IMG/VR virus record: IMGVR_UViG_3300034104_003795
Location: 26,370-90,369 of that record
DNA from: a virus
DNA: 64,000 nt
Direction: 5' to 3' (one strand)
The position numbers were made by a program, and so were the translations under genes. How positions within the stretch are numbered: position 1 is the stretch's first letter; each line of letters opens with the position of its first letter. The notes under the pieces were generated by a model. That model was not told where the DNA came from. It searched no databases and saw only the letters and a program-made list of their open reading frames with translations. Shown one piece after another: positions 39,668 to 64,000 of the stretch.

Positions 39668-39671
39668 AACT

Positions 39672-51738: not shown

Positions 51739-51742
51739 ATTC

Positions 51743-52021: not shown

Positions 52022-52027
52022 ATTTTA

Positions 52028-52282: not shown

Positions 52283-52374
52283 ATTTTCAATCTTTATTAT
52301 ACCTAAAACTACAAAATAGTTACCAATCTACCAAATATTTAAGGGACTATTTTTACCCCTAAAAGCGTAACTAA

Positions 52375-52463
52375 TTGATTCTCAATCAAGAATTTTTGGG
52401 CAAAAAATAACCCATTGAAAATCAATGAGTTATGAATGTGTTGAAAATCAATGAGTTATGAAT
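52375..52463. promoter_or_regulatory. cluster of three palindromic motifs: ATTGATTCTCAATCAAGAATTTTT, CATTGAAAATCAATGAGTTATGAAT x2
   Basis: same motif family and same arrangement as 48308-48391. Confidence 0.5.
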
Positions 52464-52789
52464 TATCCATAATTTTCCCAATAATATTGCCTTACAGCTC
52501 CACCCAATTCCATATCATTAGGATATTGTTCAACTAGGTATTTAGGTATTGAAATAAGTTCTCTACCCGCTGAACTTCCTTTGGTATAACAAATACCACA
52601 AAGTTGTCCAACTCCTTCTACATATCCAGTTCTTATATCAATATGTGTGCTTGTTTTATATTGTGTTTTCTTTCCACAAATTACACAATTATCATATTGA
52701 ACGTCATCTTTAATTGTAGTAAATGCAGGATTAATTCCTGTTACTAAATTATCTTCTCCAATTTGTAATGTTACGTGATGTTCTCCCAT
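52463..52789 (-). CDS. hypothetical Cys-rich protein (108 aa)
   Basis: 'CVICGKK...CGICYTKGS'. Confidence 0.45.
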   Translation of the reverse strand: MGEHHVTLQIGEDNLVTGINPAFTTIKDDVQYDNCVICGKKTQYKTSTHIDIRTGYVEGVGQLCGICYTKGSSAGRELISIPKYLVEQYPNDMELGGAVRQYYWENYG

Positions 52790-52825
52790 AGTATTAATAT
52801 TTATTGTTTATATAAATATATAGTT

Positions 52826-53257
52826 CTATTTTGAATTTTCCAAATCTAAATTGGCAGTGTACCATTCTAATATTTCTTCACCTGCTATTATATCCCTAGT
52901 TGCAACTCCATCTGTTGTTATATTAATATTTTCTTCATTTGGATATGCCGAATTACAATACGATACCGAATGACAAATGAAATTTATCCCTTTAAACAAT
53001 CTAAATAATTTATAACCACAATCTTCGTTTATAAAATACATATCCAAAAGGTCTTGTACCCCTTCTGGTAAATTTTTTAATTTATCTTTGGGAAGCATAT
53101 ACACACCCGTTTCTCCATCCCATTGTGGAAATACTTGCTCTCCTTTTTTTATATCTTTAATTGCAAATACACCTATCCCGTGAATTGGTGATGGTGCAAT
53201 TTTGCTTTTCACATTCATTTCTAAATGGTCTATAACCTTTTGTATATTTGTATTCAT
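52826..53257 (-). CDS. SET-domain protein (putative lysine methyltransferase)
   Basis: 'HGIGVFAIKDIKKGEQVF', 'FICHSVSYCNSAYPNE' (NHSCxPN-like), C-terminal 'EILEWY' (ELxxDY-like). Confidence 0.5.
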   Translation of the reverse strand: MNTNIQKVIDHLEMNVKSKIAPSPIHGIGVFAIKDIKKGEQVFPQWDGETGVYMLPKDKLKNLPEGVQDLLDMYFINEDCGYKLFRLFKGINFICHSVSYCNSAYPNEENINITTDGVATRDIIAGEEILEWYTANLDLENSK

Positions 53258-54792: not shown

Positions 54793-54797
54793 ATATT

Positions 54798-55007
54798 TTA
54801 TTTTTTAGTTTCTTCCATATTACCAACATATTGATATACATCCCATAATCTTCCTAATGCGTATTCCAATTGAAATTTAAGTTCACTATCAGTTTCCGTT
54901 AATGGATGTTCTACACAATGGTCATTTAGGGTACACATTATAACATGCAATCTGTCCATCAATTCTAAATAGTGTCCATCATTAATTTTTGTTTCATTTT
55001 CTGGCAT
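54798..55007 (-). CDS. hypothetical protein (69 aa)
   Basis: ORF only. Confidence 0.4.
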   Translation of the reverse strand: MPENETKINDGHYLELMDRLHVIMCTLNDHCVEHPLTETDSELKFQLEYALGRLWDVYQYVGNMEETKK

Positions 55008-55018
55008 ATATCATTTGT

Positions 55019-55735
55019 TTAAAATTCAGTTATACATCCTGTATTTTTGAAATTACTTCTATAATGAACCCGAATACCTCTGTCTTTTTGAGTTGCTATG
55101 TATGGTTTAAGTTCATTAATATCAAATATGTCAAACCATTTTTTCATATAACTATCCCAAGATATAGTGTTACATATATCAAACATTTTTTCAATTGAAT
55201 AGTTTTCTTTTTGTTGAACATATGCCATACCAAGACTTGATTCAGGTGTATTATTATTCCTTAAATTGTTAATTAGATTGTCTTTTGTTTTATTAAACAT
55301 GATTTTCATATTCTCAACAGTACCACATATTATATGGTCTCCTATGTGAAATGGATATGGACAATTCAATGGTCTAAAAAACATAGAACTACATAATAGT
55401 TTTTCATCTGACTTTAATGAATGGAACATCTTATCAATATCGGTCCAGTATTCATCACCTCTAACTTTAATAGCATATTTTGTTTCAGTTAAATTCAATC
55501 CATTTAAAGTTGATACCAATTGATATTCTAAGTTTTGCATATGTCCCTGTCCGGCGAATTCAAAATCAACTCCATCTGCTTTTACCACTTTCCAATTTGA
55601 TGGTATTTCAAATGGTATAGTATAATCATTCCAAGTTGATATGATAACTTTATGATTTGAATAATTTTCAATCCACATTTTCAATGGCTCATCTTCACAT
55701 CTTCCTTGTATTATAATTGTTAAATCATTTATCAT
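55019..55735 (-). CDS. hypothetical protein (238 aa), possibly glycosyltransferase-like
   Basis: in-operon ORF; no firm motif. Confidence 0.4.
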   Translation of the reverse strand: MINDLTIIIQGRCEDEPLKMWIENYSNHKVIISTWNDYTIPFEIPSNWKVVKADGVDFEFAGQGHMQNLEYQLVSTLNGLNLTETKYAIKVRGDEYWTDIDKMFHSLKSDEKLLCSSMFFRPLNCPYPFHIGDHIICGTVENMKIMFNKTKDNLINNLRNNNTPESSLGMAYVQQKENYSIEKMFDICNTISWDSYMKKWFDIFDINELKPYIATQKDRGIRVHYRSNFKNTGCITEF

Positions 55736-55738
55736 ATT

Positions 55739-56464
55739 TTATTTTTTAACCTTTTCATATAAAATTTCCCAATCAATAAAAGATTGCACTTTGTCACCAT
55801 ACTCTTTCATATACCACTCATGCATTTGTTCTGCATGTGTAATATCTATATTATAATCAACATACATATTTTCTATTGAATCAAACATATGAAAATATTT
55901 GTACATCGCATCGGGTTCACCATACGCAAAATAATCGCTCCAATGTGTTTCTATTTTATAGAATTCAATGTTACTTTTTGGAACTACGAATTTAGCTTTT
56001 TTGAGTTCAATCTGATGGAATAACATGTCAAATCTTACTCTCATTATAACATCGTACTGATGTGGATTTTCTATTAAATCCCAAGCACGCTTAACCATCC
56101 ACCATTGGTCTCTTATTCTTTCAACATAATAAGTTCCATGATATATTGCTCTTGGATTTACTTTAAACACATCATCATCTCTATCTAAAAATGAAATATT
56201 AGGGAATCTATTTTTTTCATAATTTTCCCAAGATTCAAAGTTATAATTTTTAAGATATGGTTTTAATTTTGATATTAAACTATCTTTATCAACTGGATGA
56301 TATGCTAAATTAAACTTACCAACACTATTGATAGAATGTTGATTGACATCCCAAGTATTAAAATAAACATCTGCATTATATTTTTTAAATAAATGTTCTT
56401 CTAAATTAGCAAATACTAATTCAAAATCTCTACAATGTCCTGTTAATACAATTGCTACTTTCAT
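55739..56464 (-). CDS. hypothetical protein (241 aa), possibly glycosyltransferase-like
   Basis: 'MKVAIVLTGHCRDFE' Rossmann-like start; no firm motif. Confidence 0.4.
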   Translation of the reverse strand: MKVAIVLTGHCRDFELVFANLEEHLFKKYNADVYFNTWDVNQHSINSVGKFNLAYHPVDKDSLISKLKPYLKNYNFESWENYEKNRFPNISFLDRDDDVFKVNPRAIYHGTYYVERIRDQWWMVKRAWDLIENPHQYDVIMRVRFDMLFHQIELKKAKFVVPKSNIEFYKIETHWSDYFAYGEPDAMYKYFHMFDSIENMYVDYNIDITHAEQMHEWYMKEYGDKVQSFIDWEILYEKVKK

Positions 56465-56465
56465 A

Positions 56466-56921
56466 TTATATTTTAACTAAATGGTCAGCCGCATAAGTTG
56501 CAATTGGACCTAATGTTTTATATCTAACTTCATATCCCATACCTTCTACTAAACCAACCGCTTGTCTAAACACTTCATTTGATTTAAAGCGTGGGTCTGG
56601 ATTTAAATCAATATCAATCCATTTTGGTTTTGGAATACCAGCTTCTTTTAAAAATTCCGCAGTTTCAATTGCATACCAAACTTCATTCAATAATCTAACT
56701 GAACGAGTAAACTCTCTATCTGCTTTCCATCTTCTATAAAGTACATGCGCACCTTTTCCGGTAGTGTACAAAGCCACAACAACCGCATATATTGTTTTAT
56801 CTGCAAAGTTTTGGGAATCGCATCCAATAAGAATTTCAATTCCATCATTGTTTTCCAAATAATTTTTAACATAAGGGATAAGTTCAAATTCTTCTTTACC
56901 ATACAATTTTTTGTACTTCAT
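56466..56921 (-). CDS. hypothetical protein (151 aa), possibly RNase-H-like fold
   Basis: weak resemblance to YkuK/DUF458 family; by-eye only. Confidence 0.3.
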   Translation of the reverse strand: MKYKKLYGKEEFELIPYVKNYLENNDGIEILIGCDSQNFADKTIYAVVVALYTTGKGAHVLYRRWKADREFTRSVRLLNEVWYAIETAEFLKEAGIPKPKWIDIDLNPDPRFKSNEVFRQAVGLVEGMGYEVRYKTLGPIATYAADHLVKI

Positions 56922-56926
56922 ATATT

Positions 56927-57739
56927 TTATTTTTTACCAAAGTGAGATACTATGTGTTTTACTATTAAACTCATTTTATCTGCACTTTCATTTGCTACTC
57001 TTTGCACTTCTTCGTGCGTTATTTCTACTATCTTACCTGCAACTCCTAAATCAGTAATCAAAGACATTGAGAATACTTTAACCCCCATATGTCTAGCAAC
57101 TAATACTTCAGGTATAGTTGACATCCCAACTGCATCTCCACCTATTATACTCATATATCTATACTCTGCTGGCGTTTCATAGTTTGGACCGGATACTGCT
57201 ATCAATACTCCTTCATGCGTTCTAATATCAACTTCACATTGTTTCGCTACTTCAATCATTTCCTTATCATATGCCGCACTAACATCTAAAAAACGAGGTC
57301 CCATTGAATCATCATTTGGACCTAACAATGGATTATCACCCATTAGATTAATATGGTCATTTACAAACATCACATCACCAATTTCAAAGTTAGGATTCAT
57401 ACCACCCGTTGCGTTGGATGTTATCAATCTTTCGATACCTAACATTTTCAGTATTCGTATTGGGTATGTAATTTCTTGCATTGTATATCCTTCGTAATAA
57501 TGATTTCTACCCTGAAGTGCTACTACCGGTACTCCATCAAGTGTACCAAATATTAAATTACCACTATGCCCTTCAATCGTTGGTGTGATAAAACCCGGAA
57601 TATCTTTATATGGTATTGTAGCTGTAATATCTATATCGTTAGCCACATCACCTAATCCTGAACCCAATACCAATCCTATCTTTGGTCTAGTATATGTAAA
57701 CTTATTAATGTAATTTAATGTTTCGTTATATTGTGCCAT
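56927..57739 (-). CDS. purine nucleoside phosphorylase (PunA-type, PNP/MTAP family)
   Basis: 'IGLVLGSGLG', 'HSGNLIFGTLDGVPVVALQGRNHYYEG', 'SNATGG'. Confidence 0.8.
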   Translation of the reverse strand: MAQYNETLNYINKFTYTRPKIGLVLGSGLGDVANDIDITATIPYKDIPGFITPTIEGHSGNLIFGTLDGVPVVALQGRNHYYEGYTMQEITYPIRILKMLGIERLITSNATGGMNPNFEIGDVMFVNDHINLMGDNPLLGPNDDSMGPRFLDVSAAYDKEMIEVAKQCEVDIRTHEGVLIAVSGPNYETPAEYRYMSIIGGDAVGMSTIPEVLVARHMGVKVFSMSLITDLGVAGKIVEITHEEVQRVANESADKMSLIVKHIVSHFGKK

Positions 57740-58157
57740 TTGTTATTCTTTTTTTAATTTCGGTTGTACTGATTCCTCTGGTGTATGATAGGTAAACTAA
57801 TACAATATCATTTTCATCCAGCCAATCCTGTGTGAATTGCATTTGTGTATAATAATCTTTCTTTGCCCAATCATCACCAATTGCTATGATATCAGGTTTA
57901 ACTTGTAATATTGATGGTTTACTATCTGCACCCCCGATGTTAGGAATAACCTCATCAACAAACTTACAAAACTCCAAAGACTTCTTTCGTTCTTCGTAAG
58001 TCATAATTGGTGGTTTACCTTTATAGTATTCAATAAACTCATCTGTGTTTAGTGATACTATTACTTTATCAGCTATTTTAGAACATTGTTTAAGAAAGTT
58101 CATGTGGCCATAATGTAATATGTCAAATGTTCCACCGGTGTATAATATTTTACTCAT
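57726..58157 (-). CDS. cytidylyltransferase-like nucleotidyltransferase (TagD/RfaE-domain-II type)
   Basis: 'LYTGGTFDILHYGHMNFL' (HxGH motif). Confidence 0.7.
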   Translation of the reverse strand: MSKILYTGGTFDILHYGHMNFLKQCSKIADKVIVSLNTDEFIEYYKGKPPIMTYEERKKSLEFCKFVDEVIPNIGGADSKPSILQVKPDIIAIGDDWAKKDYYTQMQFTQDWLDENDIVLVYLSYTRGISTTEIKKRITNGTI

Positions 58158-58845
58158 ATATTCGTTTAAAAGGTATATTTACTCTGTTTAATTCTGCTTC
58201 AATTTCTATTACATTATTTGTATGTAATCCATCCCCACAATAATCCGTATATTTTCTAGTAGGAAGTTCTAATATAATTGAATTTTCTATTTGTTTTGTT
58301 TTATCATATAATTCATGTCCTAATAATATTTCAATAGATTCATTTCTTTCGAGAATTGGAAATAGATGATTTAATTTTTTAGGATTTATTGCAAGTGTAC
58401 AAGCATTAACTTCATACGATGGTCTAGTTGCATATGCAATTGGAGGCCACGGTGGTGCGGGCCAATCTCCACATGCTAAATCAAATGTATTATCTAAAAG
58501 AAATCTAATTGTTTCACCGCTTGTAAAAAATGAATCTTCATCTAATATTAGAACTTTATCATATTCTCTAGTTAGAGCCTGTATTTTATTTATACCTTCA
58601 GTAAAGTAAAATCCATTTAATGTAGAACCTGCTGCAGATGTATTTCCAAAATTCCATTTCTTCTTATCAAAATAAATTGATACTCCTAATTCTAAAAACT
58701 TTGGTATGTATTGAATGTATTCGCTTATATCATTATCATATAAAAAAAGACATCTTATATCAATATTAGGAAAAAGATGTCTCACCGATTGAACCGATAA
58801 ATAAGTTCTATCAGTTCGTTTATAATCTTTAAAAAATACTATCAT
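58150..58845 (-). CDS. hypothetical protein, possibly glycosyltransferase-like
   Basis: ORF-track start 58869 is a TTG inside tRNA-Leu; internal ATG (MIVFFKDYK) used; 'VLILDEDSFF' DxD-like. Confidence 0.4.
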   Translation of the reverse strand: MIVFFKDYKRTDRTYLSVQSVRHLFPNIDIRCLFLYDNDISEYIQYIPKFLELGVSIYFDKKKWNFGNTSAAGSTLNGFYFTEGINKIQALTREYDKVLILDEDSFFTSGETIRFLLDNTFDLACGDWPAPPWPPIAYATRPSYEVNACTLAINPKKLNHLFPILERNESIEILLGHELYDKTKQIENSIILELPTRKYTDYCGDGLHTNNVIEIEAELNRVNIPFKRIYE

Positions 58846-58861
58846 ATTATTAAGTTGTTTG

Positions 58862-58942
58862 TGCCCCAAGAGAGATTCGAACTCTCACACCTCTCGATAT
58901 CAGTTCCTAAAACTGATGTGTCTACCGTTCCACCATCAGGGC
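58862..58942 (-). tRNA. tRNA-Leu (anticodon TAG)
   Basis: type-II cloverleaf; acceptor GCCCTGA/TTGGGGC, anticodon loop TTTAGGA, 13-nt variable arm, T-arm GAGAG-TTCGAAT-CTCTC. Confidence 0.8.
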
Positions 58943-59470
58943 ATATTTTTGTAATGATTTTAAAAATAATTCAATTCCTTTGTTGTGATTAGCTTCCCAA
59001 TCATCCGGATTACCGCTATCACTTACATATTTGTATGCAGTAAAATCAAATCCATAAATCTTACATACCTTTGCAATTGAGTATGCTTCCATATCACATA
59101 TTACAGATGGTGTGGTTTGAAAATGGTCTTGTGTATAACATATATTATATCCCAATCCATTGAAATCAATATTACCCATCAATATTTCATTATCAAATGG
59201 TGTTTTTGTTTTATCTGCAAATGGTCTAGCGTCCATATCGTTTTGGACAAATGTTTTACACTTAAATAAACTACCAACCATAACGGCATGCCCACCCGCA
59301 CTTCCGTAGTTTATAACTACTACATCTTTGGGGTCTAAATCTTTAAGAGTTTCAGTTGCTTTTATAGCCGCATTTACTTTTCCAACACCAGTATAAACAA
59401 CTTTAACACCTTCCGGTGCTTTTTCCTTTGGAAACTCATTTTCTAATGCAACAAATAATATAACGTTCAT
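58922..59470 (-). CDS. mtnN: 5'-methylthioadenosine/S-adenosylhomocysteine nucleosidase
   Basis: 'MNVILFVALENEF', 'VVYTGVGKVNAAIKATETL', 'VINYGSAGG', 'DMEAYSIAKVC'; start set at internal ATG 59470; 3' end overlaps tRNA-Leu by ~21 nt. Confidence 0.7.
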   Translation of the reverse strand: MNVILFVALENEFPKEKAPEGVKVVYTGVGKVNAAIKATETLKDLDPKDVVVINYGSAGGHAVMVGSLFKCKTFVQNDMDARPFADKTKTPFDNEILMGNIDFNGLGYNICYTQDHFQTTPSVICDMEAYSIAKVCKIYGFDFTAYKYVSDSGNPDDWEANHNKGIELFLKSLQKYALMVER

Positions 59471-59477
59471 AACAATA

Positions 59478-59565
59478 AGTATGCTGTTAGAGTAGGATTC
59501 GAACCATACAGGAGGAGATTCAAAAAGTAACATTTAGTGCTTGCAAGCTGGTGGTCAACCCCATA
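59478..59565 (-). other. tRNA-like fragment with degenerate T-arm (possible pseudo-tRNA)
   Basis: contains GGTTCGAATCC T-loop but T-stem pairs only 2 bp and no acceptor pairing found. Confidence 0.25.
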
Positions 59566-59661
59566 TTACTTTTCTATTTCTTTATCCTCGCCCACGAGAC
59601 GAGTGGGTGTGTTTGCCAGGTTATAACATAGATAACCAATTTCACCATCTAACAATTTTTG

Positions 59662-59746
59662 CGGAGAAACAGGGATTCGAACCCCAGAACCTGTTACAGT
59701 TGCCGGTTTTCAAGACCGGTGCATTCAACCACTCTGCCATTTCTCC
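59662..59746 (-). tRNA. tRNA-Ser (anticodon TGA)
   Basis: acceptor GGAGAAA/TTTCTCC, anticodon stem-loop CCGGT-CTTGAAA-ACCGG, long variable arm. Confidence 0.85.
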
Positions 59747-59763
59747 GTTAAGTACTCTAATAA

Positions 59764-60027
59764 TTAGAATACTTTTTCTTCGCTTTTACCGTCTAAACTA
59801 TTTTCGGTATCGGCATGCTTTCTTCTAGCTTCTTCTGCTTCTTTATATATTCTAACCCAAGTTAAGAATATATCTACTGGCGCTAATATCCAACACATAA
59901 TCAATAGAGCCATAGAATCTAATCCAGGTGAAATACCTAATCCACCAGCCATTACATCTCTATTCCATTTTCGTATTGACATTATAACACAATAGATGAA
60001 ACACATTACATAATAAGTAATAAACAT
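59764..60027 (-). CDS. small membrane protein (87 aa) within tRNA island
   Basis: ORF with 2-3 hydrophobic helices; uncertain. Confidence 0.3.
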   Translation of the reverse strand: MFITYYVMCFIYCVIMSIRKWNRDVMAGGLGISPGLDSMALLIMCWILAPVDIFLTWVRIYKEAEEARRKHADTENSLDGKSEEKVF

Positions 60028-60046
60028 AACATTTGTTTTTAATGAG

Positions 60047-60118
60047 TTACCCGAACTGGACTCGAACCAATACGAACAGAATCAAAATCTGTGATGCTAA
60101 CCATTACATCATCGGGCA
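60047..60118 (-). tRNA. tRNA-Gln (anticodon TTG)
   Basis: U1-A72 acceptor TGCCCGA/TCGGGTA, anticodon stem-loop ACAGA-TTTTGAT-TCTGT. Confidence 0.8.
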
Positions 60119-60254
60119 ATAATCTCAAGCATTCTACTTCCCGCAGTGCGAAATTGTATCTTACTTAGCCCATCGCTAGCGGTATGGGTACTTGAGTTTT
60201 AGTAATTGAAAAACATCTATTCTTCTTGCGGCCTAATACTAACAGGCCCACTTG

Positions 60255-60327
60255 AGCGAGAGACCAGGCTCGAACTGGCCACCTGAAGCTTGGAAGGCTA
60301 CCGCTCTACCAAATGAGCTACTCTCGC
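60255..60327 (-). tRNA. tRNA-Gly (anticodon TCC)
   Basis: acceptor GCGAGAG/CTCTCGC, D-arm GCTC-ATTTGGTA-GAGC, anticodon loop CTTCCAA. Confidence 0.85.
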
Positions 60328-60385
60328 TAAAGAGTGTAGTGGAAGATATCATTCCTGCAGTTACTACACGTTTTATCTGCTTTGG

Positions 60386-60458
60386 AGCGGAAGACCAGGC
60401 TCGAACTGGCCACCCTGACCTTGGCAAGGTCATGCTCTACCAAATGAGCTACTTCCGC
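60386..60458 (-). tRNA. tRNA-Gly (anticodon GCC)
   Basis: acceptor GCGGAAG/CTTCCGC, anticodon stem-loop TGACC-TTGCCAA-GGTCA. Confidence 0.85.
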
Positions 60459-60515
60459 AATTAATAGGTGAGGCTATTACCATCATTAAGTCTTTAATGC
60501 TTTAGACACCTATTG

Positions 60516-60589
60516 TGGACCCACTTGGAATCGAACCAAGCACCTAATGATTATGAGTCATTTGCTCTAACCGAATGAGCTATAGGTCC
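60516..60589 (-). tRNA. tRNA-Met (anticodon CAT; elongator/initiator/Ile2 not distinguishable)
   Basis: acceptor GGACCTA/TGGGTCC, anticodon stem-loop AATGA-CTCATAA-TCATT. Confidence 0.8.
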
Positions 60590-60593
60590 GATG

Positions 60594-60667
60594 TGGAGAA
60601 GAAGGGATTCGAACCCATGACCCCCTGCGTGCAAGGCAGGTGCTCTAGCCAACTGAGCTACTTCCCC
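60594..60667 (-). tRNA. tRNA-Ala (anticodon TGC)
   Basis: acceptor GGGGAAG/CTTCTCC with G3:U70 identity pair, anticodon stem-loop CCTGC-CTTGCAC-GCAGG. Confidence 0.85.
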
Positions 60668-60678
60668 ATAAGTGAACG

Positions 60679-60763
60679 TACCGGGGATGGGATTCGAACC
60701 CACACGAGCGATTTCTGCTCAAAAGATTTTAAGTCTTTCATGTCTACCATTCCATCACCCCGG
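60679..60763 (-). tRNA. tRNA-Leu (anticodon TAA)
   Basis: acceptor GCCGGGG/CCCCGGT, anticodon loop CTTAAAA, long variable arm GAGC-AGAAATC-GCTC. Confidence 0.85.
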
Positions 60764-60789
60764 CGGCGATACTATTTTTAATAACTATA

Positions 60790-60831
60790 CAAAGATACGA
60801 ATAATAATTTAATTATCCAAATCCTTTTTTA
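60790..60831 (-). promoter_or_regulatory. Bacteroidetes-type promoter candidate driving minus-strand tRNA cluster
   Basis: +strand 'CAAAGATAcgaataataatttaattatCCAAAT'. Confidence 0.4.
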
Positions 60832-61258
60832 TATTATATATTTTAACCCTTCTGATTTTAGTTCCACTCTCATCAGGATTAATTAATATATCAATTTTTT
60901 TTCTCCACCTCTTTGCCATCAAATCTCTGACAGTATAAACACCATCTAATTTTCCAGCACCCTTCACTCTTACTTTTTGTCCAAACTTATACTTTCGTTT
61001 CAGGTCTCTACTAATCGCTATTACCTTTTGTTTCTTTGGATTAAGACTATCCAACTTATAACCACTTGCGGTAATTAAGGGAGTTGAATCGGTTTGGCCG
61101 GCGGATACCGTATATGTTGTAACCGTAACTACATCATAAGGTATGTGTTTCTTTTCTATCATTATATCCGCAACTTCTTCCTCACTCATTTCGGAGTCAA
61201 TCATATTATGTGGAATAAACATAATAACAGTTAAGAATAAAAGAATAACTTTTCTCAT
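60809..61258 (-). CDS. 3D-domain (MltA/YuiC-like) putative peptidoglycan hydrolase, secreted
   Basis: signal peptide MRKVILLFLTVIMFIP; 'VTVTTYTVSAGQTDSTPLITASGYKL' and 'GVYTVRDLMAKRWRKKIDIL' match 3D-domain pattern. Confidence 0.6.
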   Translation of the reverse strand: MRKVILLFLTVIMFIPHNMIDSEMSEEEVADIMIEKKHIPYDVVTVTTYTVSAGQTDSTPLITASGYKLDSLNPKKQKVIAISRDLKRKYKFGQKVRVKGAGKLDGVYTVRDLMAKRWRKKIDILINPDESGTKIRRVKIYNIKKDLDN

Positions 61259-61276
61259 AACTTATTTTTTATTTAG

Positions 61277-61350
61277 TGATTCGGAAAGGATTCGAACCTT
61301 TGACCCCAAACTTAGAAGGTTTGTGCTCTATCCAGCTGAGCTACCGAACC
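61277..61350 (-). tRNA. tRNA-Arg (anticodon TCT)
   Basis: acceptor GGTTCGG/CCGAATC, anticodon stem-loop CAAAC-CTTCTAA-GTTTG. Confidence 0.85.
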
Positions 61351-61456
61351 ATATAGTAAGAGAGATACTACGTCTAATATCTCAATGTTTCTACCGGCCG
61401 TCTATGGAATATGCGCACTGACCATAAACTAAACTTTCGTCTGCTCTTACTACTTG

Positions 61457-61527
61457 CGGAAAGTACGGGAATCGAACCCGTCACATTGCCGTGACAAGGC
61501 AACATTATACCGATTAACTAACTCTCC
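61457..61527 (-). tRNA. tRNA-Asp (anticodon GTC)
   Basis: acceptor GGAGAGT/ACTTTCC, anticodon stem-loop TTGCC-TTGTCAC-GGCAA, 4-nt variable loop. Confidence 0.8.
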
Positions 61528-61556
61528 AAATTACATTATCGTTCTTTAACTAATTT

Positions 61557-61814
61557 TTATTTTTTATTGTTAGTTAATTTTTGTTCTAATTTATCCAATC
61601 TCGAATCTAATTGAGAAAAGATGTGATTTTCTAATTCATCTGCTCTACGATTAAAGTCAGTTTGATTTCTATCAACTTGACGATACAAATCTTCGCCGAT
61701 GCTTTCTAATTCTTTTTCTATTTTTCTTGCCTTAACAAGCCCAATAACAGCAACTATCGACACTGCGATAACCACCACTACAGACATTCCTAAAACGAAT
61801 GATAATATTTCCAT
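61557..61814 (-). CDS. small membrane-anchored coiled-coil protein (85 aa)
   Basis: N-terminal TM 'FVLGMSVVVVIAVSIVAVIGLV' + charged helical region. Confidence 0.4.
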   Translation of the reverse strand: MEILSFVLGMSVVVVIAVSIVAVIGLVKARKIEKELESIGEDLYRQVDRNQTDFNRRADELENHIFSQLDSRLDKLEQKLTNNKK

Positions 61815-61851
61815 AATTTATTTCTCCTATATGTCAAAGAACGATAATGTG

Positions 61852-61924
61852 AGCCCAAGACAAGAATCGAACTTGCGACCTACTGATTACAAATCAGTTG
61901 CTCTACCTGCTGAGCTACTCGGGC
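61852..61924 (-). tRNA. tRNA-Thr (anticodon TGT)
   Basis: acceptor GCCCGAG/CTTGGGC, anticodon stem-loop ACTGA-TTTGTAA-TCAGT. Confidence 0.85.
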
Positions 61925-62024
61925 GTTTAGGAAAGTAGAAGATGGGTGCGTGGACATCTACTTTTATGATTGGCATTTCTAACCGATTTATGCATACTAA
62001 TATGCTTATCCCAATCAACCTTTG

Positions 62025-62096
62025 TACTCTGTACGGGATTCGAACCCGTATTACATCCGTGAAAGGGATGTGACCTAACCCTTAGTCGAACAGAGC
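62025..62096 (-). tRNA. tRNA-Glu (anticodon TTC)
   Basis: acceptor GCTCTGT/ACAGAGT, 3-bp D-stem with 10-nt loop, anticodon stem-loop CATCC-CTTTCAC-GGATG. Confidence 0.8.
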
Positions 62097-62114
62097 GTTA
62101 ATGTTAATGTTATA

Positions 62115-62146
62115 CAAATATACGAATAATATCTGATATAACCAAA
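62115..62146 (-). promoter_or_regulatory. Bacteroidetes-type promoter candidate driving minus-strand tRNA cluster
   Basis: +strand 'CAAATATAcgaataatatctgatataaCCAAAT'. Confidence 0.4.
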
Positions 62147-62309
62147 TCTATTTTAACAATAGGTTTTATATTTTTTTATACCACCTTTCAAACGTCTTAT
62201 ACATATCATACAAGCTCCGTTTTCTCTTATTATTTTTCTTATTCGGTATAACTTATTACTTCGTCTATTAATTTCAAACTTATCATTTTTCATAATGTCC
62301 AATTTAATG

Positions 62310-62398
62310 CGGAGAATGTTGGATTCGAACCAACGGTACAACTTTCATCGTACAACGGTTTAGCAAACCGGCCCCATCGTCCACTCGGGCAATTCTCC
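62310..62398 (-). tRNA. tRNA-Ser (anticodon GCT)
   Basis: acceptor GGAGAAT/ATTCTCC, anticodon loop TTGCTAA, long variable arm, T-arm GTTGG-TTCGAAT-CCAAC. Confidence 0.8.
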
Positions 62399-62400
62399 GT

Positions 62401-62475
62401 TGGGGTGTAAGGACGGTATCGAACCGTCTTATCTAGCTCCACAAACTAGCGCATCACCTTAATGCTTCAAACACC
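62401..62475 (-). tRNA. tRNA-His (anticodon GTG) with G-1 and genomically encoded CCA
   Basis: extra 5' G pairing with C73; anticodon stem-loop CTAGT-TTGTGGA-GCTAG; 3' ...CTTACAC-C-CCA. Confidence 0.8.
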
Positions 62476-62481
62476 ATTTGG

Positions 62482-62550
62482 TTGCGGGGCCAGGAATCGA
62501 ACCTGAATATCTGGCTTATGAGACCAAACGGATTACCTAATCTCCCCACA
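62482..62550 (-). tRNA. second CAT-anticodon tRNA (Met/fMet/Ile2) with shortened D-arm
   Basis: acceptor TGTGGGG/CCCCGCA, anticodon loop CTCATAA, T-arm TCAGG-TTCGATT-CCTGG; D-arm only ~13 nt. Confidence 0.55.
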
Positions 62551-62558
62551 ATATCAAG

Positions 62559-62629
62559 AGGCGAGTACAAGATTCGAACTTGTGTAAAAGCTTTTGCAGA
62601 GCTCCATATAACCACTCTAACAACTCGCC
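62559..62629 (-). tRNA. tRNA-Cys (anticodon GCA)
   Basis: acceptor GGCGAGT/ACTCGCC, anticodon stem-loop GAGCT-CTGCAAA-AGCTT, T-arm ACAAG-TTCGAAT-CTTGT. Confidence 0.75.
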
Positions 62630-62635
62630 ATTTTG

Positions 62636-62708
62636 TAGCCCCTAAAGGATTCGAACCCATACTCCGAAGTCCGTAGCTTCGTGTGCTAATCCATTACACC
62701 AAAGAGCC
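62636..62708 (-). tRNA. tRNA-Arg (anticodon ACG)
   Basis: acceptor GGCTCTT/AGGGGCT (three G:U pairs), anticodon stem-loop CGAAG-CTACGGA-CTTCG. Confidence 0.7.
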
Positions 62709-62712
62709 ATAG

Positions 62713-62783
62713 CACCGGTGGAAGGACTCGAACCCTCACAAACAGTTTTGGAGACTGGTATGCTACCATTACACTACACCGAT
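62713..62783 (-). tRNA. tRNA-Trp (anticodon CCA)
   Basis: A1-U72 acceptor ATCGGTG/CACCGGT (as in E. coli tRNA-Trp), anticodon loop CTCCAAA. Confidence 0.8.
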
Positions 62784-62789
62784 ATATTG

Positions 62790-62863
62790 TTGGAATAAAA
62801 AGAATCGAACTTTTAACCTTCCGCGTATCAGACGGATGCTCTAACCAATTGAGCTATATTCCA
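62790..62863 (-). tRNA. tRNA-Ile (anticodon GAT)
   Basis: acceptor TGGAATA/TATTCCA, D-arm GCTC-AATTGGTTA-GAGC, anticodon loop CTGATAC. Confidence 0.8.
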
Positions 62864-62911
62864 ATTTTGCACTTCCTATTTCCCAATGCTGTGTAGTGCG
62901 AACCATATCGG

Positions 62912-62985
62912 TTGGGAATGCAGGATTCGAACCTACGGCCTCTAGCTCCCAAAGCTAGCGCGATACCTGACTACGCTAATTCCCA
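62912..62985 (-). tRNA. tRNA-Pro (anticodon TGG)
   Basis: acceptor TGGGAAT/ATTCCCA, anticodon stem-loop CTAGC-TTTGGGA-GCTAG. Confidence 0.8.
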
Positions 62986-63060
62986 ATGTGATAAGTTTCC
63001 ATCCTATCGTATAATGTGTACATCATTATTTTAACTCAATATTAAGTTCGGAACTTTTTG

Positions 63061-63134
63061 TGACCCCTAATGGATTCGAACCATTGACTCCTATATTAAA
63101 AGTATAGTGCTCTAACCAACTGAGCTAAGAGGTC
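63061..63134 (-). tRNA. tRNA-Lys (anticodon TTT)
   Basis: acceptor GACCTCT/AGGGGTC, anticodon stem-loop CTATA-CTTTTAA-TATAG. Confidence 0.85.
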
Positions 63135-63174
63135 TGACTTTTGTCATACTTGTCACTTTCCATAGTATTTGTTT

Positions 63175-63384
63175 TTAATTGTTATCTTCTAATTCTATTT
63201 TACAATATTCGTCCAATGATATTTTATCAAATGTTATCCATTGTCCATTTCCAAAATCTACTGCGAACTTACCATCTTCTGGTAGATACGCAGTTACTAT
63301 TCCTTTACTACCCATTTCAATTTTTCCTTTTGGTGTCACCAACTCTTTTATTAATGTACCAACTCCATGATTAAAATCTGCCAT
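63175..63384 (-). CDS. hypothetical protein (69 aa) inside tRNA island
   Basis: ORF not overlapping tRNAs. Confidence 0.4.
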   Translation of the reverse strand: MADFNHGVGTLIKELVTPKGKIEMGSKGIVTAYLPEDGKFAVDFGNGQWITFDKISLDEYCKIELEDNN

Positions 63385-63406
63385 AATTGTTTTTTTAATT
63401 GTTAAG

Positions 63407-63479
63407 TGGTAATGAGTGGTATCGAACCACTTCCTAAAGATTTTCAGTCTTTCGCTTCTACCTAGTTAGCTTCATCACC
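63407..63479 (-). tRNA. tRNA-Phe (anticodon GAA)
   Basis: acceptor GGTGATG/CATTACC, anticodon stem-loop AAAGA-CTGAAAA-TCTTT. Confidence 0.8.
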
Positions 63480-63483
63480 GGTG

Positions 63484-63565
63484 TTGGGGTAGACGGACTC
63501 GAACCGCCGAACTCAAATGAGAGCTGATTTACAGTCAGCCGCAATTGCCACTATGCGATACCCCA
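63484..63565 (-). tRNA. tRNA-Tyr (anticodon GTA)
   Basis: acceptor TGGGGTA/TACCCCA, anticodon stem-loop GCTGA-CTGTAAA-TCAGC, 14-nt variable arm. Confidence 0.8.
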
Positions 63566-63670
63566 ATGGCGTTCCATATAACTCACATTTGATAGCCCTA
63601 TCGTGCTACTCACTCAATCCTACAACAGCTTTCAACTGAGAGATTGTAGGAATGTGTATGGAACATGTTG

Positions 63671-63745
63671 TGGAAGTTACAGGATTCGAACCTATGACCC
63701 TCACGGTGTAAACGTGATGCTCTAAACCAACTGAGCTAAACTTCC
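63671..63745 (-). tRNA. tRNA-Val (anticodon TAC)
   Basis: acceptor GGAAGTT/AACTTCC, anticodon stem-loop TCACG-TTTACAC-CGTGA. Confidence 0.85.
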
Positions 63746-63778
63746 TACTTATCCAATATGTCAAAGAACTTAATCTTG

Positions 63779-63850
63779 CGCTCCCTCTTGGATTCGAACC
63801 AAGGACCAACAGATTAACAGTCTGCTGCGCTACCGCTGCGCCAAAGGAGC
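63779..63850 (-). tRNA. tRNA-Asn (anticodon GTT)
   Basis: acceptor GCTCCTT/AGGGAGC, anticodon stem-loop GCAGA-CTGTTAA-TCTGT. Confidence 0.85.
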
Positions 63851-63851
63851 T

Positions 63852-63892
63852 TAAAACGAAAAAACCTCTAACCGATTTTATTCAGTTAGAGG
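63852..63892 (-). terminator. rho-independent terminator (minus strand), upstream boundary of tRNA island
   Basis: CCTCTAAC...GTTAGAGG 8-bp stem; + side A-run (T-run on minus strand). Confidence 0.6.
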
Positions 63893-64000
63893 TCTTTCTA
63901 TTTAAGTTAAGTTATGTAATTACCCAACATCAGTGTCCTCTAACTGCTTCGTACTAATATAATCCACCTTGCCTAAATTTAAGTTTGCCGGATTACTTAA

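What the first reader, a model, noticed from the sequence alone, without database searches (positions are those of the whole stretch)
58862..63892. About 5-kb minus-strand tRNA island with ~25 tRNAs decoding all 20 amino acids
By manual folding I find these anticodons: Leu(TAG,TAA), Ser(TGA,GCT), Gln(TTG), Gly(TCC,GCC), Met/CAT x2, Ala(TGC), Arg(TCT,ACG), Asp(GTC), Thr(TGT), Glu(TTC), His(GTG), Cys(GCA), Trp(CCA), Ile(GAT), Pro(TGG), Lys(TTT), Phe(GAA), Tyr(GTA), Val(TAC), Asn(GTT). U34 anticodons that read A-ending codons predominate, which fits an AT-rich phage compensating for host tRNA supply. tRNA-His carries the extra G-1 and a genomically encoded CCA. The second CAT tRNA has an abnormally short D-arm. 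Two promoter-like elements (60790-60831, 62115-62146) and a terminator (63852-63892) partition the island. Small ORFs, including a 3D-domain hydrolase, are interspersed.
Basis: seen in the sequence. Interest (0 to 1): 0.6.

Follow-up and report, generated by a model that had tools for sequence, protein, structure and literature searches.

The report
Phage tRNA island with hidden RNAs
A 5-kb stretch of an uncultured phage genome does carry 25 tRNA genes covering all 20 amino acids, which is a familiar phage feature, but the same stretch also holds two conserved structured RNAs of no described family and runs on past the window end into a further tRNA and a GOLLD RNA.

Summary

The window is 100% identical to a 181-kb metagenome contig. 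On that contig the locus continues past the window end:
- a 26th tRNA, which is an initiator;
- tandem promoter-like repeats;
- a GOLLD RNA (307 bits).

Related uncultured phages keep the same gene order. The two internal promoters belong to a window-wide Bacteroidota-type -33/-7 motif. Genes lack Shine-Dalgarno sites, so the host is probably a Bacteroidota member.

The 26 tRNAs amount to about one per codon box plus an extra Gly. That is a near-complete decoding set, not a top-up of a few codons. This is a new member of a known kind, the GOLLD-associated phage tRNA array.

The short-D-arm CAU tRNA is real, initiator-like and conserved. The '3D-domain' label could not be verified.

Two spacers hold conserved structured RNAs with no Rfam match:
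- a 174-nt tRNA-like RNA at 59482-59655, with 18 compensatory pairs;
- a 135-nt pseudoknotted RNA at 60119-60253.

The parts
63778..63850 (-). tRNA-Asn (GTT)
   Evidence: ARAGORN; Rfam 69.6 bits
63670..63745 (-). tRNA-Val (TAC)
   Evidence: 70.3 bits
63483..63565 (-). tRNA-Tyr (GTA)
   Evidence: 53.9 bits
63406..63479 (-). tRNA-Phe (GAA)
   Evidence: 58.6 bits
63060..63134 (-). tRNA-Lys (TTT)
   Evidence: 69.8 bits
62910..62985 (-). tRNA-Pro (TGG)
   Evidence: 67.7 bits
62789..62863 (-). tRNA-Ile (GAT)
   Evidence: 72.5 bits
62712..62783 (-). tRNA-Trp (CCA)
   Evidence: 57.3 bits
62635..62708 (-). tRNA-Arg (ACG)
   Evidence: 48.0 bits
62558..62629 (-). tRNA-Cys (GCA)
   Evidence: 54.4 bits
62479..62550 (-). 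Non-canonical CAU tRNA. Initiator-like acceptor stem (UGUGGGG/CCCCGCA, A73, encoded CCA). The 5' strand of the D stem is missing. The anticodon stem can extend to 7 bp.
   Evidence: Rfam 30.3 bits with an unpaired D stem. 75% identity to E. coli initiator metZ, against 67% to elongator metT. Identical in L012 and L013. The L004 homolog has a compensatory anticodon stem, and L005/L015 carry a canonical tRNA at this position.
62401..62475 (-). tRNA-His (GTG) with encoded G-1 (62475) and CCA; U-U mismatches at 5:68 and 6:67
   Evidence: 41.4 bits
62309..62398 (-). tRNA-Ser (GCT)
   Evidence: 49.9 bits
62153..62293 (-). Possible 46-aa basic ORF; doubtful, not called by JGI on the identical contig
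   Evidence: no Pfam hit
62115..62146 (-). Promoter, Bacteroidota type (TTTG-N20-TATATTTG), about 19 nt upstream of tRNA-Glu
   Evidence: consensus as given in PMC6847099
62024..62096 (-). tRNA-Glu (TTC)
   Evidence: 58.9 bits
61851..61924 (-). tRNA-Thr (TGT)
   Evidence: 71.4 bits
61557..61814 (-). 85-aa ORF with an N-terminal hydrophobic segment and a predicted helix; function unknown
   Evidence: weak ZapG-like match, E 0.0011, below cut-off; called by JGI on L013
61456..61527 (-). tRNA-Asp (GTC)
   Evidence: 59.0 bits
61276..61350 (-). tRNA-Arg (TCT)
   Evidence: 67.9 bits
60809..61258 (-). 149-aa ORF with an N-terminal hydrophobic segment. JGI names its homologs '3D domain-containing protein'; that label was not verified here.
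   Evidence: 947 homologs; PHROG 21574, function unknown. No Pfam, NCBIfam, PDB or fold match.
60790..60821 (-). Promoter, Bacteroidota type (TTTG-N20-TATCTTTG), about 26 nt upstream of tRNA-Leu(TAA)
60678..60764 (-). tRNA-Leu (TAA)
   Evidence: 56.8 bits
60593..60667 (-). tRNA-Ala (TGC)
   Evidence: 69.4 bits
60515..60589 (-). Canonical CAU tRNA, either elongator Met or Ile2 (lysidine). It has C4:G69 and C5:G68.
   Evidence: 68.3 bits. The best E. coli BLAST match is tRNA-Ile(CAU) at 77%. Global identity is tied at 78% between metT and the ileX-like gene.
60383..60458 (-). tRNA-Gly (GCC), encoded CCA
60254..60327 (-). tRNA-Gly (TCC)
   Evidence: 59.0 bits
60119..60253 (-). Conserved structured RNA candidate 'S5' (135 nt) that fills the Gly-Gln spacer. 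The 5' domain has two hairpins and a co-varying loop-to-3' pseudoknot. The 3' domain is a three-helix unit.
   Evidence: Found in about 70 metagenome or IMG/VR contigs. The pseudoknot occurs in 4 co-varying versions. The 3' domain shows covariation in 5 pairs. No Rfam match.
60046..60118 (-). tRNA-Gln (TTG)
   Evidence: 53.5 bits
59764..60027 (-). 87-aa hydrophobic ORF (JGI calls a 62-aa version); function unknown
   Evidence: a related C-terminus precedes the S5 motif in L018
59661..59746 (-). tRNA-Ser (TGA)
   Evidence: 57.3 bits
59482..59655 (-). Conserved tRNA-like structured RNA candidate 'S6' (174 nt). An 8-bp acceptor-like stem joins the two ends, next to a T arm (GGUUCGAAUCC). The internal domain of about 130 nt holds a 12-bp helix and GC-rich hairpins.
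   Evidence: 23 distinct homologs. 45 pairs, 18 of them with compensatory changes. 98.1% of cells paired, 0 of 500 shuffles reach the observed values, and the covariation score is 0.273 against at most 0.062 when slid. No Rfam, tRNA or tmRNA call.
58922..59470 (-). 182-aa nucleosidase-like ORF (MTA/SAH nucleosidase family); its last 21 nt, including the stop codon, overlap tRNA-Leu(TAG)
   Evidence: PF01048 E 4.7e-12; NCBIfam PRK05634 E 1e-18, below cut-off; conserved in L001 and L005
58861..58942 (-). tRNA-Leu (TAG), last tRNA of the island, lying between two protein genes
   Evidence: 54.0 bits
63175..63384 (-). 69-aa ORF between tRNA-Phe and tRNA-Lys; function unknown; identical protein on many contigs
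   Evidence: listed in 58 index blocks; no Pfam hit
63852..63898 (-). Intrinsic-terminator-like hairpin plus T run, ending 1-2 nt before tRNA-Asn
   Evidence: -22.5 kcal/mol, z = -6.3

Best explanation
This is the larger part of a phage-encoded RNA locus. It is an array of tRNA genes which, together with one initiator tRNA just beyond the window end, gives about one tRNA per codon box plus a second Gly. That is a near-complete decoding set for the standard code.

Expression (inferred). Host RNA polymerase transcribes the array from Bacteroidota-type -33/-7 promoters. Two of them lie inside the island, ahead of tRNA-Glu and tRNA-Leu(TAA). The first 14 tRNAs probably depend on read-through from a battery of tandem promoters upstream of the adjacent GOLLD RNA. 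The tRNAs are co-transcribed with small ORFs and with two other structured RNAs. Host RNase P and 3'-end processing enzymes would then cut them out of the polycistronic transcripts. Twenty-two of the 25 tRNAs lack an encoded CCA, so they also need a CCA-adding enzyme.

Function (inferred). The set keeps translation of the A/T-rich phage genes going largely independently of the host tRNA pool. That would matter whether the pool is ill-matched, degraded during infection, or attacked by tRNA-cleaving defence nucleases.

Shown here: the genes, their order, their conservation in related phages, the promoter motif, and the physical link to GOLLD. Inferred: expression, processing, the identities of the CAU tRNAs, and the benefit to the phage.
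For: - 25 tRNAs from two independent tools.
- 26 tRNAs on the 100%-identical contigs L013 and L014. The extra one has the initiator hallmarks C1xA72 and A11:U24 and is 81% identical to E. coli metZ.
- The same order, with 21-27 tRNAs, in IMG/VR and JGI relatives whose 149-aa protein is down to 55% identical.
- The anticodon set is one per box (12 U34, 9 G34, ACG, CCA, CAT) plus Gly-GCC. By standard wobble rules it reads every sense codon except CGG (9 of 16,017 codons), and AUA as well if one CAU tRNA is Ile2.
- The cognate A-ending codon is the most used codon for Ala, Glu, Lys, Gln, Leu, Pro, Arg, Thr and Val.
- The promoter motif occurs 15 times against 3.1 expected, always oriented with the genes.
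- GOLLD scores 288-314 bits upstream of the array in all seven related loci examined.
- The literature states that GOLLD is encoded in phages 'often near tRNA islands', and that env-38 lies downstream of a Met-tRNA (PMC12286853).
- Phage tRNAs are reported to evade tRNA-targeting defences (PMC10264068 and PMC11555353).
Against: - There are no expression data, and neither host nor host codon usage is known.
- The two non-initiator CAU tRNAs cannot be assigned with confidence. One is tied between Met and Ile2 and the other is structurally aberrant. Coverage of AUA (3.1% of codons) and the 'one per box' reading are therefore conditional.
- The set still depends on host aminoacyl-tRNA synthetases, modification enzymes and CCA addition, so independence is only partial.
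- A strong terminator-like hairpin sits directly in front of the first 14 tRNAs, with no recognisable promoter after it.
- No tRNA-maturation enzyme was found in the window.
Confidence: 0.75

Rival explanations
1. Codon compensation only. The phage carries tRNAs for A/T-ending codons that its host decodes poorly, and this raises the translation rate of late genes.
For: 76% of third codon positions are A or T, and the U34 tRNAs match the most used codon in nine families. Codon compensation is described as the most widely accepted hypothesis (abstract of PMC10264068).
Against: The array is not selective. It also covers boxes with no bias problem (Trp, Met, Cys, the G34 tRNAs for NNY boxes) and rarely used boxes such as CGN. 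A complete set is not what compensation for a few rare codons predicts. If the host is a Bacteroidota member of similarly low GC content, its own tRNA pool would already suit these codons, but this was not tested. U34 predominance follows from any minimal set.
Confidence: 0.3
2. Hitch-hiking mobile cassette. The tRNA array plus GOLLD is a horizontally moving module, as in mycobacterial tRNA arrays, kept mainly by its own spread or as a landing pad for small ORFs, with little benefit to this phage.
For: GOLLD-plus-tRNA clusters occur in unrelated genomes and are described as horizontally transferred (PMC6582537). Relatives differ by insertions and deletions of ORFs and spacers between tRNAs, and tRNA-Pro sits at a different place in L002.
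Against: The order and the sequences of the tRNAs are conserved across relatives whose proteins have diverged to 55-64% identity. Compensatory changes keep the stems paired. The anticodon set is non-redundant and complete, which argues for selection on decoding.
Confidence: 0.15
3. Not a phage feature. The window could be part of a small AT-rich bacterial genome or another element whose own tRNA operon this is.
For: A complete single set of tRNAs is what a reduced cellular genome has. A TonB-dependent-receptor-like gene lies in the window.
Against: The window has no rRNA, ribosomal-protein or aminoacyl-tRNA synthetase genes. Most ORFs are small and of unknown function, and PHROG/Pfam matches include helicase, ATP-dependent DNA ligase, RNaseH-like and Kyano_Gp96. 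Relatives are IMG/VR viral contigs of 90-214 kb. The best ligase matches are T4-like phages. GOLLD is a phage and prophage RNA.
Confidence: 0.03

Closest known systems
GOLLD-associated tRNA arrays of phages, prophages and mycobacteria (Weinberg et al. 2009 as cited in PMC12286853; PMC6582537)
   Same: A GOLLD RNA sits next to or inside a dense cluster of about 25-32 tRNA genes. A Met-tRNA lies immediately upstream of GOLLD, as for env-38, and a tRNA-like remnant lies at the GOLLD 3' side.
   Different: The probable host here is a Bacteroidota member. The array is broken up by Bacteroidota-type promoters, small ORFs and two further structured RNAs not reported with GOLLD. GOLLD itself lies outside the 64-kb window.
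tRNA regions of large lytic phages such as T4 (8 tRNAs plus two small stable RNAs), T5 (about 24), KVP40, Sf14 (26 tRNAs for 19 amino acids, PMC12482277) and huge phages. T4, T5 and KVP40 details are from my own knowledge.
   Same: tRNA genes are clustered on one strand, tightly spaced (2-10 nt in places) and interspersed with small ORFs, and they cover most or all amino acids. In T4, additional small stable RNAs of unknown function are embedded in the cluster and released by tRNA processing.
   Different: There is no sequence relationship: megablast finds only tRNA-sized fragments. This set is non-redundant, at about one tRNA per codon box. The embedded RNAs are unrelated to any Rfam family.
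tmRNA, and tRNA-like domains of bacterial Y-RNA-like (YrlA) RNAs, as comparators for the 174-nt RNA at 59482-59655
   Same: An acceptor-like stem formed by the 5' and 3' ends stacks on a canonical T arm (GGUUCGAAUCC). There is a D-loop-like GG segment and a large structured insert in place of the anticodon arm.
   Different: The stem has 8 bp. There is no G3:U70, no conserved tag reading frame and no encoded CCA. Neither ARAGORN nor the Rfam tmRNA and YrlA models match it. At 150-175 nt it is half the size of a tmRNA.
Bacterial initiator tRNA-fMet, as comparator for the odd CAU tRNA at 62479-62550
   Same: The acceptor 3' strand plus tail, CCCCGCAACCA, is identical to E. coli metZ. G2:C71 and G4:C69 are present, as are two G-C pairs in the anticodon stem and the loop CUCAUAA.
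   Different: It has a U1-A72 pair instead of the C1xA72 mismatch. The D stem is lost, so there is no A11:U24. Position 31:39 is U-G. A bona fide initiator is encoded separately, 3 kb upstream.

Membership tests
tRNA (Rfam RF00005) | Covariance-model score at or above the gathering score (29 bits) | tested here: met
   25 of 25 score 30.3-72.5 bits. ARAGORN calls the same 25.
tRNA (Rfam RF00005) | Complete cloverleaf with a paired D stem | tested here: met
   The Infernal alignment of tRNA-His shows a complete cloverleaf, and by my reading of the sequences 24 of 25 have one. The exception is 62479-62550, where all four D-stem pairs are missing.
Phage tRNA gene array | Many tRNA genes densely clustered on one strand of a phage genome | tested here: met
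   25 genes in 5.0 kb. Phage-type gene content. Related contigs come from IMG/VR.
Phage tRNA gene array | Conservation of the array in related phages | tested here: met
   The same order, with 21-27 tRNAs, in L002-L005 and L011-L015.
Phage tRNA gene array | Expression and aminoacylation during infection | not testable with these tools
   No host isolate and no RNA data.
GOLLD-associated tRNA island | A GOLLD RNA (RF02032) adjacent to the tRNA cluster | tested here: met
   L013 8689-9102 scores 306.8 bits. This lies 283-696 nt beyond window position 64000 on a 100%-identical contig. GOLLD is also present in L004, L005, L011, L012, L015 and L018. It is not inside the window itself.
Bacterial initiator tRNA (the 26th tRNA, L013 7745-7817) | 1:72 mismatch, A11:U24, and G-C pairs next to the anticodon loop | tested here: met
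   C1xA72 and A11:U24 are present. G30:C40 and G31:C39 give two of the canonical three G-C pairs. It is 81% identical to E. coli metZ.
Bacterial initiator tRNA (odd tRNA 62479-62550) | 1:72 mismatch, A11:U24, and three G-C pairs in the anticodon stem | tested here: not met
   U1-A72 is paired, the D stem is absent, and there are two G-C pairs plus U31-G39. It is initiator-like in sequence only (75% to metZ).
tRNA-Ile2 (CAU read as AUA after lysidine modification) | CAU anticodon with the acceptor pairs C4:G69 and C5:G68 (E. coli TilS determinants, recalled from the literature, not re-read here) | tested here: inconclusive
   60515-60589 has both pairs, and its best E. coli BLAST match is tRNA-Ile(CAU). 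Global identity is tied with elongator metT at 78% each. The relatives L004, L005 and L012 have U5-G68. The modification itself cannot be tested.
3D (Asp-Asp-Asp) domain, Pfam PF06725 (149-aa ORF) | Match to the family profile or fold | tested here: not met
   No Pfam hit even at E <= 10. No NCBIfam hit. No PDB profile hit. hhalign against E. coli MltA gives E 0.13 over 18 columns. The AlphaFold model has pLDDT 63.6 and no Foldseek hit below E 0.09. Only JGI's product name supports the label.
Bacteroidota sigma-A promoter | -33 TTTG and -7 TAnnTTTG elements about 19-21 nt apart, upstream of genes | tested here: met
   15 matches against 3.1 expected, oriented with the downstream genes on both strands. 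The consensus is as given in PMC6847099. Promoter activity was not testable.
tmRNA (candidate RNA 59482-59655) | tRNA-like domain with G3:U70, a tag reading frame, and a match to tmRNA models | tested here: not met
   An acceptor stem and a T arm are present. However, position 3 pairs as G-C, no reading frame is conserved across homologs, and there is no ARAGORN or Rfam tmRNA hit.

The most novel reading that the evidence does not exclude
The 'spacers' of this island are not spacers. The island would then be a multi-RNA production locus that delivers, besides tRNAs and GOLLD, at least two undescribed classes of phage structured RNA, each released by the tRNA-processing machinery.
- One is a 150-175-nt tRNA-like RNA (59482-59655). 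It has an 8-bp acceptor stem and a T arm and could be a substrate or decoy for tRNA-binding enzymes such as RNase P, the CCA-adding enzyme, aminoacyl-tRNA synthetases or anticodon nucleases.
- The other is a 135-nt doubly pseudoknotted RNA (60119-60253).
- A third unusual product is an initiator-derived CAU tRNA without a D stem that is kept in several phage lineages.
Probability: 0.5. Interest if true: 0.7.

Novelty: new member of a known kind. Interest (0 to 1): 0.5.

Why it matters
The tRNA island itself adds one more example to a well-known class. Its value is as a clean case of a non-redundant, near-complete decoding set in a phage that probably infects Bacteroidota. That bears on the debate between codon compensation and escape from host tRNA depletion or cleavage.

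The locus also ties together tRNAs, GOLLD and two unclassified structured RNAs in one transcription and processing context. GOLLD is an RNA nanocage of unknown function that has been suggested to enclose tRNAs. If the tRNA-like 174-nt RNA and the pseudoknotted 135-nt RNA are functional, they are new handles on what phages do to the host translation or tRNA-surveillance machinery. They are also candidates for structural study. Both are abundant in environmental metagenomes, mostly from lakes judging by the contig names, so homolog sets for covariation analysis are easy to obtain.

Tried and rejected
- Close relatives among cultured phages. Megablast of the island against 50,697 phage records gave only tRNA-sized fragments.
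- 3D-domain label for the 149-aa ORF. I tried Pfam at E <= 10, NCBIfam, PHROGs (only families of unknown function), phmmer and profile searches of PDB, AlphaFold2 with a 22-sequence alignment (pLDDT 63.6) followed by Foldseek against PDB, and hhalign against E. coli MltA. None gave a significant match.
- Assigning the CAU tRNAs by similarity to E. coli genes. This was clear only for the initiator. The Ala-adjacent tRNA is tied between Met and Ile2. The odd tRNA has no BLAST match in E. coli at E <= 10. Phage annotations call every CAT 'Met' and are uninformative.
- Extra or degenerate tRNAs in the spacers. A permissive Rfam search of 58000-64000 gave only tRNA-derived noise.
- Known families for the two spacer RNAs. 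Rfam at E <= 10 on the isolated stretches gave only spurious hits: mir-345 on the wrong strand, sR52 and AniS.
- Host clue from isolate genomes and MAGs. The S5 motif pattern hit three unrelated genomes that lack the motif context, which I take as chance.
- SusC/RagA membership of the 1086-aa outer-membrane protein. There was no NCBIfam SusC hit, so it is only weak evidence for the host.
- tmRNA reading of the 174-nt RNA. Rejected, because there is no G3:U70, no conserved tag frame and no model match.
- Mini-ORFs inside both RNAs (AUG UUU UUC... and AUG GGG...). They vary in length and stop position between homologs, so they are probably not coding.
- Paralogous ORF arrays at 10-13 kb and 24-27 kb. 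Only weak pairwise similarity was found, and I did not pursue it.

Full report
**Observation.** ARAGORN finds 25 tRNA genes in the 64-kb window. Rfam's tRNA model finds the same 25 at 30.3-72.5 bits against a gathering score of 29. No other family reaches its gathering score in the window. The other 59 kb holds no tRNA, so the cluster is not a chance pattern. The tRNA genes raise local G+C to 0.39, against about 0.31 in the flanking sequence.

- tRNA-His has an encoded G-1 (62475) opposite C73 and an encoded CCA. It also has two U-U mismatches in the acceptor stem.
- The second CAU tRNA (62479-62550) lacks the 5' strand of the D stem in the Infernal alignment and is the weakest call at 30.3 bits.
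- Only 3 of the 25 encode CCA: His, the odd CAU tRNA and Gly-GCC.

**Where the window comes from.** No cultured phage in the 50,697-record collection shares more than tRNA-sized fragments with the island. An exact-protein look-up shows that the last 10 kb of the window are 100% identical to two JGI metagenome contigs of 181,380 bp and 90,033 bp (L013 and L014). IMG/VR holds relatives of 90-214 kb.

Gene content is phage-like. It includes a helicase, an ATP-dependent DNA ligase whose best matches are T4-like phages, RNaseH-like and Kyano_Gp96 domains, and many small ORFs of unknown function.

**The island is cut by the window end.** On L013, reading upstream past window position 64000, the order is as follows.
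- A small ORF.
- A GOLLD RNA (RF02032, 306.8 bits, E 3e-88), 283-696 nt beyond the window end.
- Four or five tandem promoter-like repeats (AAAAAAGATTTGGTAGTTTGAAAAA..TTCGTATCTTTA).
- A 26th tRNA, 1.57 kb beyond the window end.

That tRNA has the bacterial initiator hallmarks C1xA72 and A11:U24 and is 81% identical to E. coli metZ. GOLLD is present at 288-314 bits at the same place in all six other related loci examined. [quoted passage not shown] The same holds for mycobacterial tRNA arrays (PMC6582537).

**Conservation.** Relatives whose 149-aa island protein is 97% to 55% identical keep the tRNAs in the same order, with 21-27 genes. They differ by insertions and deletions of ORFs and spacers and by one relocated tRNA-Pro.

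**Transcription signals and host.** This motif occurs 15 times in the window against 3.1 +/- 1.8 in shuffles. Its extended form ATTATTCGTATnTTTGTATA occurs 7 times against 0.19 expected. Every instance points the same way as the gene downstream of it, including two on the plus strand ahead of plus-strand ORFs. This is the -33/-7 consensus of the Bacteroidota primary sigma factor (PMC6847099).

Two further observations fit a Bacteroidota host.
- Only 3 of 99 predicted genes have a Shine-Dalgarno-like motif, and A reaches 69-79% at positions -12 to -10. That matches the Bacteroidetes pattern described in the same paper.
- A TonB-dependent-receptor-like ORF with a carboxypeptidase-regulatory domain lies in the window. 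This is weak support, because the SusC model does not match it.

I therefore infer a Bacteroidota host with probability about 0.7. The main doubt is that the contig also carries genes typical of cyanophages: heme oxygenase, bilin reductase, AdoMet decarboxylase and Kyano_Gp96.

Inside the island the promoters sit about 19 nt before tRNA-Glu and about 26 nt before tRNA-Leu(TAA). That gives three transcription units. The hairpin at 63852-63898 is a strong terminator-like structure (-22.5 kcal/mol, z = -6.3). It ends 1-2 nt before tRNA-Asn, and no promoter motif lies between it and the first 14 tRNAs. Their transcription is therefore unexplained. Read-through from the tandem promoters upstream of GOLLD is my inference.

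**What the tRNA set can decode.** The anticodons are 12 with U34, 9 with G34, plus ACG, CCA and two CAT. With the upstream initiator that makes 26 genes. If the three CAU tRNAs are fMet, Met and Ile2, this is exactly one tRNA for each of the 25 codon boxes (the initiator counted as one) plus one extra Gly (GCC).

In 99 predicted genes (16,017 codons), 76% of third positions are A or T. The A-ending cognate is the most used codon for nine amino acids. GGT, which Gly-GCC reads, makes up 59% of Gly codons. ATA makes up 39% of Ile codons and 3.1% of all codons. CGG, the only codon the set cannot read by standard wobble, occurs 9 times.

It is not specific evidence for codon compensation. A complete, non-redundant set fits better the idea that the phage makes itself largely independent of the host tRNA pool. 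The literature now links that idea to host tRNA degradation and to tRNA-cleaving defence systems (PMC10264068 and PMC11555353). I could not test it directly.

**The CAU tRNAs.**
- The upstream one is an initiator (see above).
- The one next to tRNA-Ala (60515-60589) is canonical. It has C4:G69 and C5:G68, which I recall as the E. coli TilS determinants, and its best BLAST match among 5,426 E. coli genomes is a tRNA-Ile with a CAT anticodon. In global alignment, however, it is 78% identical to both that gene and elongator metT. The choice between Ile2 and Met stays open.
- The odd one (62479-62550) resembles initiators. It is 75% identical to metZ, with the same 3' strand CCCCGCAACCA, but has U1-A72, no D stem and an anticodon stem that can extend to 7 bp.

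The odd tRNA is not a dead gene. It is identical in L012 and L013 and differs at one T-loop base in L011. A homolog in the more distant L004 also has a reduced D arm and keeps the anticodon stem paired through three double changes (UUGGU/GCCAG against UAUCU/GGAUG). L005 and L015 carry a canonical U1-A72 CAU tRNA at the same position.

**Protein genes in the island.**
- The 149-aa ORF has 947 homologs, which JGI names '3D domain-containing protein'. No profile or fold test I ran supports or refutes that label. The model was of low confidence.
- The ORF listed as 203 aa really starts at ATG 59470 and is 182 aa. It is a nucleosidase-family protein, and its stop codon lies 21 nt inside tRNA-Leu(TAG).
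- The other small ORFs (69, 85 and 87 aa) have no family match.
- No CCA-adding enzyme, RNA ligase or tRNA-modification gene is in the window. A Metallophos plus cREC_REC (cyclic-phosphate processing) gene pair lies at 39233-40433.

**Two structured RNAs hidden in the 'spacers'.**

(a) 59482-59655 (174 nt). This RNA starts 5 nt after tRNA-Ser(TGA) and ends 11 nt before the nucleosidase start codon.
- Twenty-three distinct homologs were found among the fetched metagenome loci.
- On a 19-sequence MAFFT alignment, RNAalifold predicts 45 pairs, 18 of them with compensatory double changes.
- 98.1% of cells are paired. No shuffle out of 500 reaches the observed values. The covariation score is 0.273, against at most 0.062 when the partners are slid by 1-3 columns.
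- The 5' and 3' ends form an 8-bp acceptor-like stem: UUGU/ACAG is invariant and is followed by four pairs seen in five co-varying versions. This stem sits next to a canonical T arm. The interior holds a 12-bp helix and GC-rich hairpins.
- It is not called as a tRNA or tmRNA, has no G3:U70, has no conserved reading frame, and matches no Rfam family even at E <= 10.

(b) 60119-60253 (135 nt). This RNA fills the Gly(TCC)-Gln gap.
- A pattern taken from it recovers the element on about 70 IMG/VR and metagenome contigs, nearly always between tRNAs.
- Its 5' domain has a GGCC hairpin whose loop pairs with a downstream segment. The pairing occurs in four co-varying versions (UUAGUA/UACUAA, UUGUGAA/UUCACAA, UGUGGA/UUCACA, GGUGG/CCACC), which gives compensatory changes at five positions in register.
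- Its 3' domain exists as a long form, with covariation in five pairs across 17 distinct sequences, or as a short hairpin.
- It has no Rfam match.
- The evidence is weaker than for (a). There are few independent haplotypes, and a single AT-rich 6-bp helix is not significant on its own: 20% of shuffles reach that length.

Because both RNAs are flanked by tRNAs or carry tRNA-like ends, release by RNase P and 3'-end processing is the natural inference. From my own knowledge, phage T4 offers a precedent, with two small stable RNAs embedded in its tRNA cluster.

**Verdict.** The finding is real and accurately described. As a phage tRNA island it is a new member of a known kind, the GOLLD-associated tRNA array, and by itself is of modest interest. 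Three things raise its interest:
- the set is a non-redundant, near-complete decoding set in a probable Bacteroidota phage;
- it includes a conserved D-armless, initiator-derived tRNA;
- the island contains two conserved structured RNAs that are in no Rfam family, one of them tRNA-like and very well supported by covariation.

Noticed in passing
L013 7745-7817 and 8689-9102 (a contig 100% identical to the window; 283-1640 nt beyond window position 64000): A 26th tRNA (an initiator with C1xA72 and A11:U24) and a GOLLD RNA (306.8 bits) continue the island outside the window. GOLLD is present in all six other related loci checked.
   Followed up: yes
L013 7580-8200: Four or five tandem copies of a promoter-like unit (AAAAAAGATTTGGTAGTTTGAAAAA..TTCGTATCTTTA), spaced about 110-120 nt apart, lie ahead of the initiator tRNA and GOLLD. 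The -7 element ends in TTTA rather than TTTG. They may form a promoter battery or encode short transcripts.
   Followed up: partly
window 59482-59655 (minus): A 174-nt conserved tRNA-like structured RNA with an 8-bp acceptor-like stem, a T arm and a large insert. It has 18 compensatory pairs and no Rfam, tRNA or tmRNA call.
   Followed up: yes
window 60119-60253 (minus): A 135-nt conserved RNA between tRNA-Gly and tRNA-Gln with a co-varying pseudoknot. It occurs on about 70 metagenome contigs, in long and short 3'-domain forms. No Rfam match.
   Followed up: yes
window 63566-63669, 61351-61455 and 60459-60514 (minus): Other inter-tRNA spacers fold so that their two ends pair (z = -2.1, -2.85 and -2.4). 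They are identical in close relatives and absent in distant ones, so covariation could not be assessed.
   Followed up: partly
window 58922-58942: The stop codon and last 7 codons of the nucleosidase-like ORF lie inside the 5' part of tRNA-Leu(TAG). Excision of the tRNA would therefore remove the stop codon from the mRNA.
   Followed up: no
window 39233-40433 (minus): Adjacent genes for a calcineurin-like phosphoesterase (Metallophos) and a cREC_REC 'cyclic-phosphate processing receiver' domain protein. This could be an RNA-end-healing module relevant to tRNA damage.
   Followed up: partly
window 2380-5640 (plus): A 1086-aa outer-membrane TonB-dependent-receptor-like protein (CarboxypepD_reg, faint Plug, OMP beta-barrel) encoded on the opposite strand with its own Bacteroidota-type promoter at 2152-2183. 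This is unusual cargo for a phage. There was no SusC NCBIfam hit.
   Followed up: partly
L013 2819-6681 (upstream of the island, outside the window): Genes for heme oxygenase, ferredoxin-dependent bilin reductase, AdoMet decarboxylase and S-AdoMet lyase. These are typical cyanophage-style auxiliary genes, on a phage whose promoters and translation-start regions look Bacteroidota-like.
   Followed up: no
L018 8397-8800: A related 214-kb phage contig carries a bona fide tmRNA (83.4 bits) as well as GOLLD, a tRNA array and both spacer-RNA motifs.
   Followed up: no
L012 9573-9817: A close relative has a 140-nt insertion in the Val-Tyr spacer that contains a T-arm-like GGTTCGAATCC motif. ARAGORN does not call it, and it may be a degenerate or unusual tRNA.
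   Followed up: no
window 53257-54792 and 51007-58157 (minus): Just downstream of the island lies a block of metabolic genes: Trp-halogenase-like flavoprotein, SET-domain protein, WavE-like protein, RNaseH-like protein, purine nucleoside phosphorylase and a glycerol-3-phosphate cytidylyltransferase-like protein.
   Followed up: no
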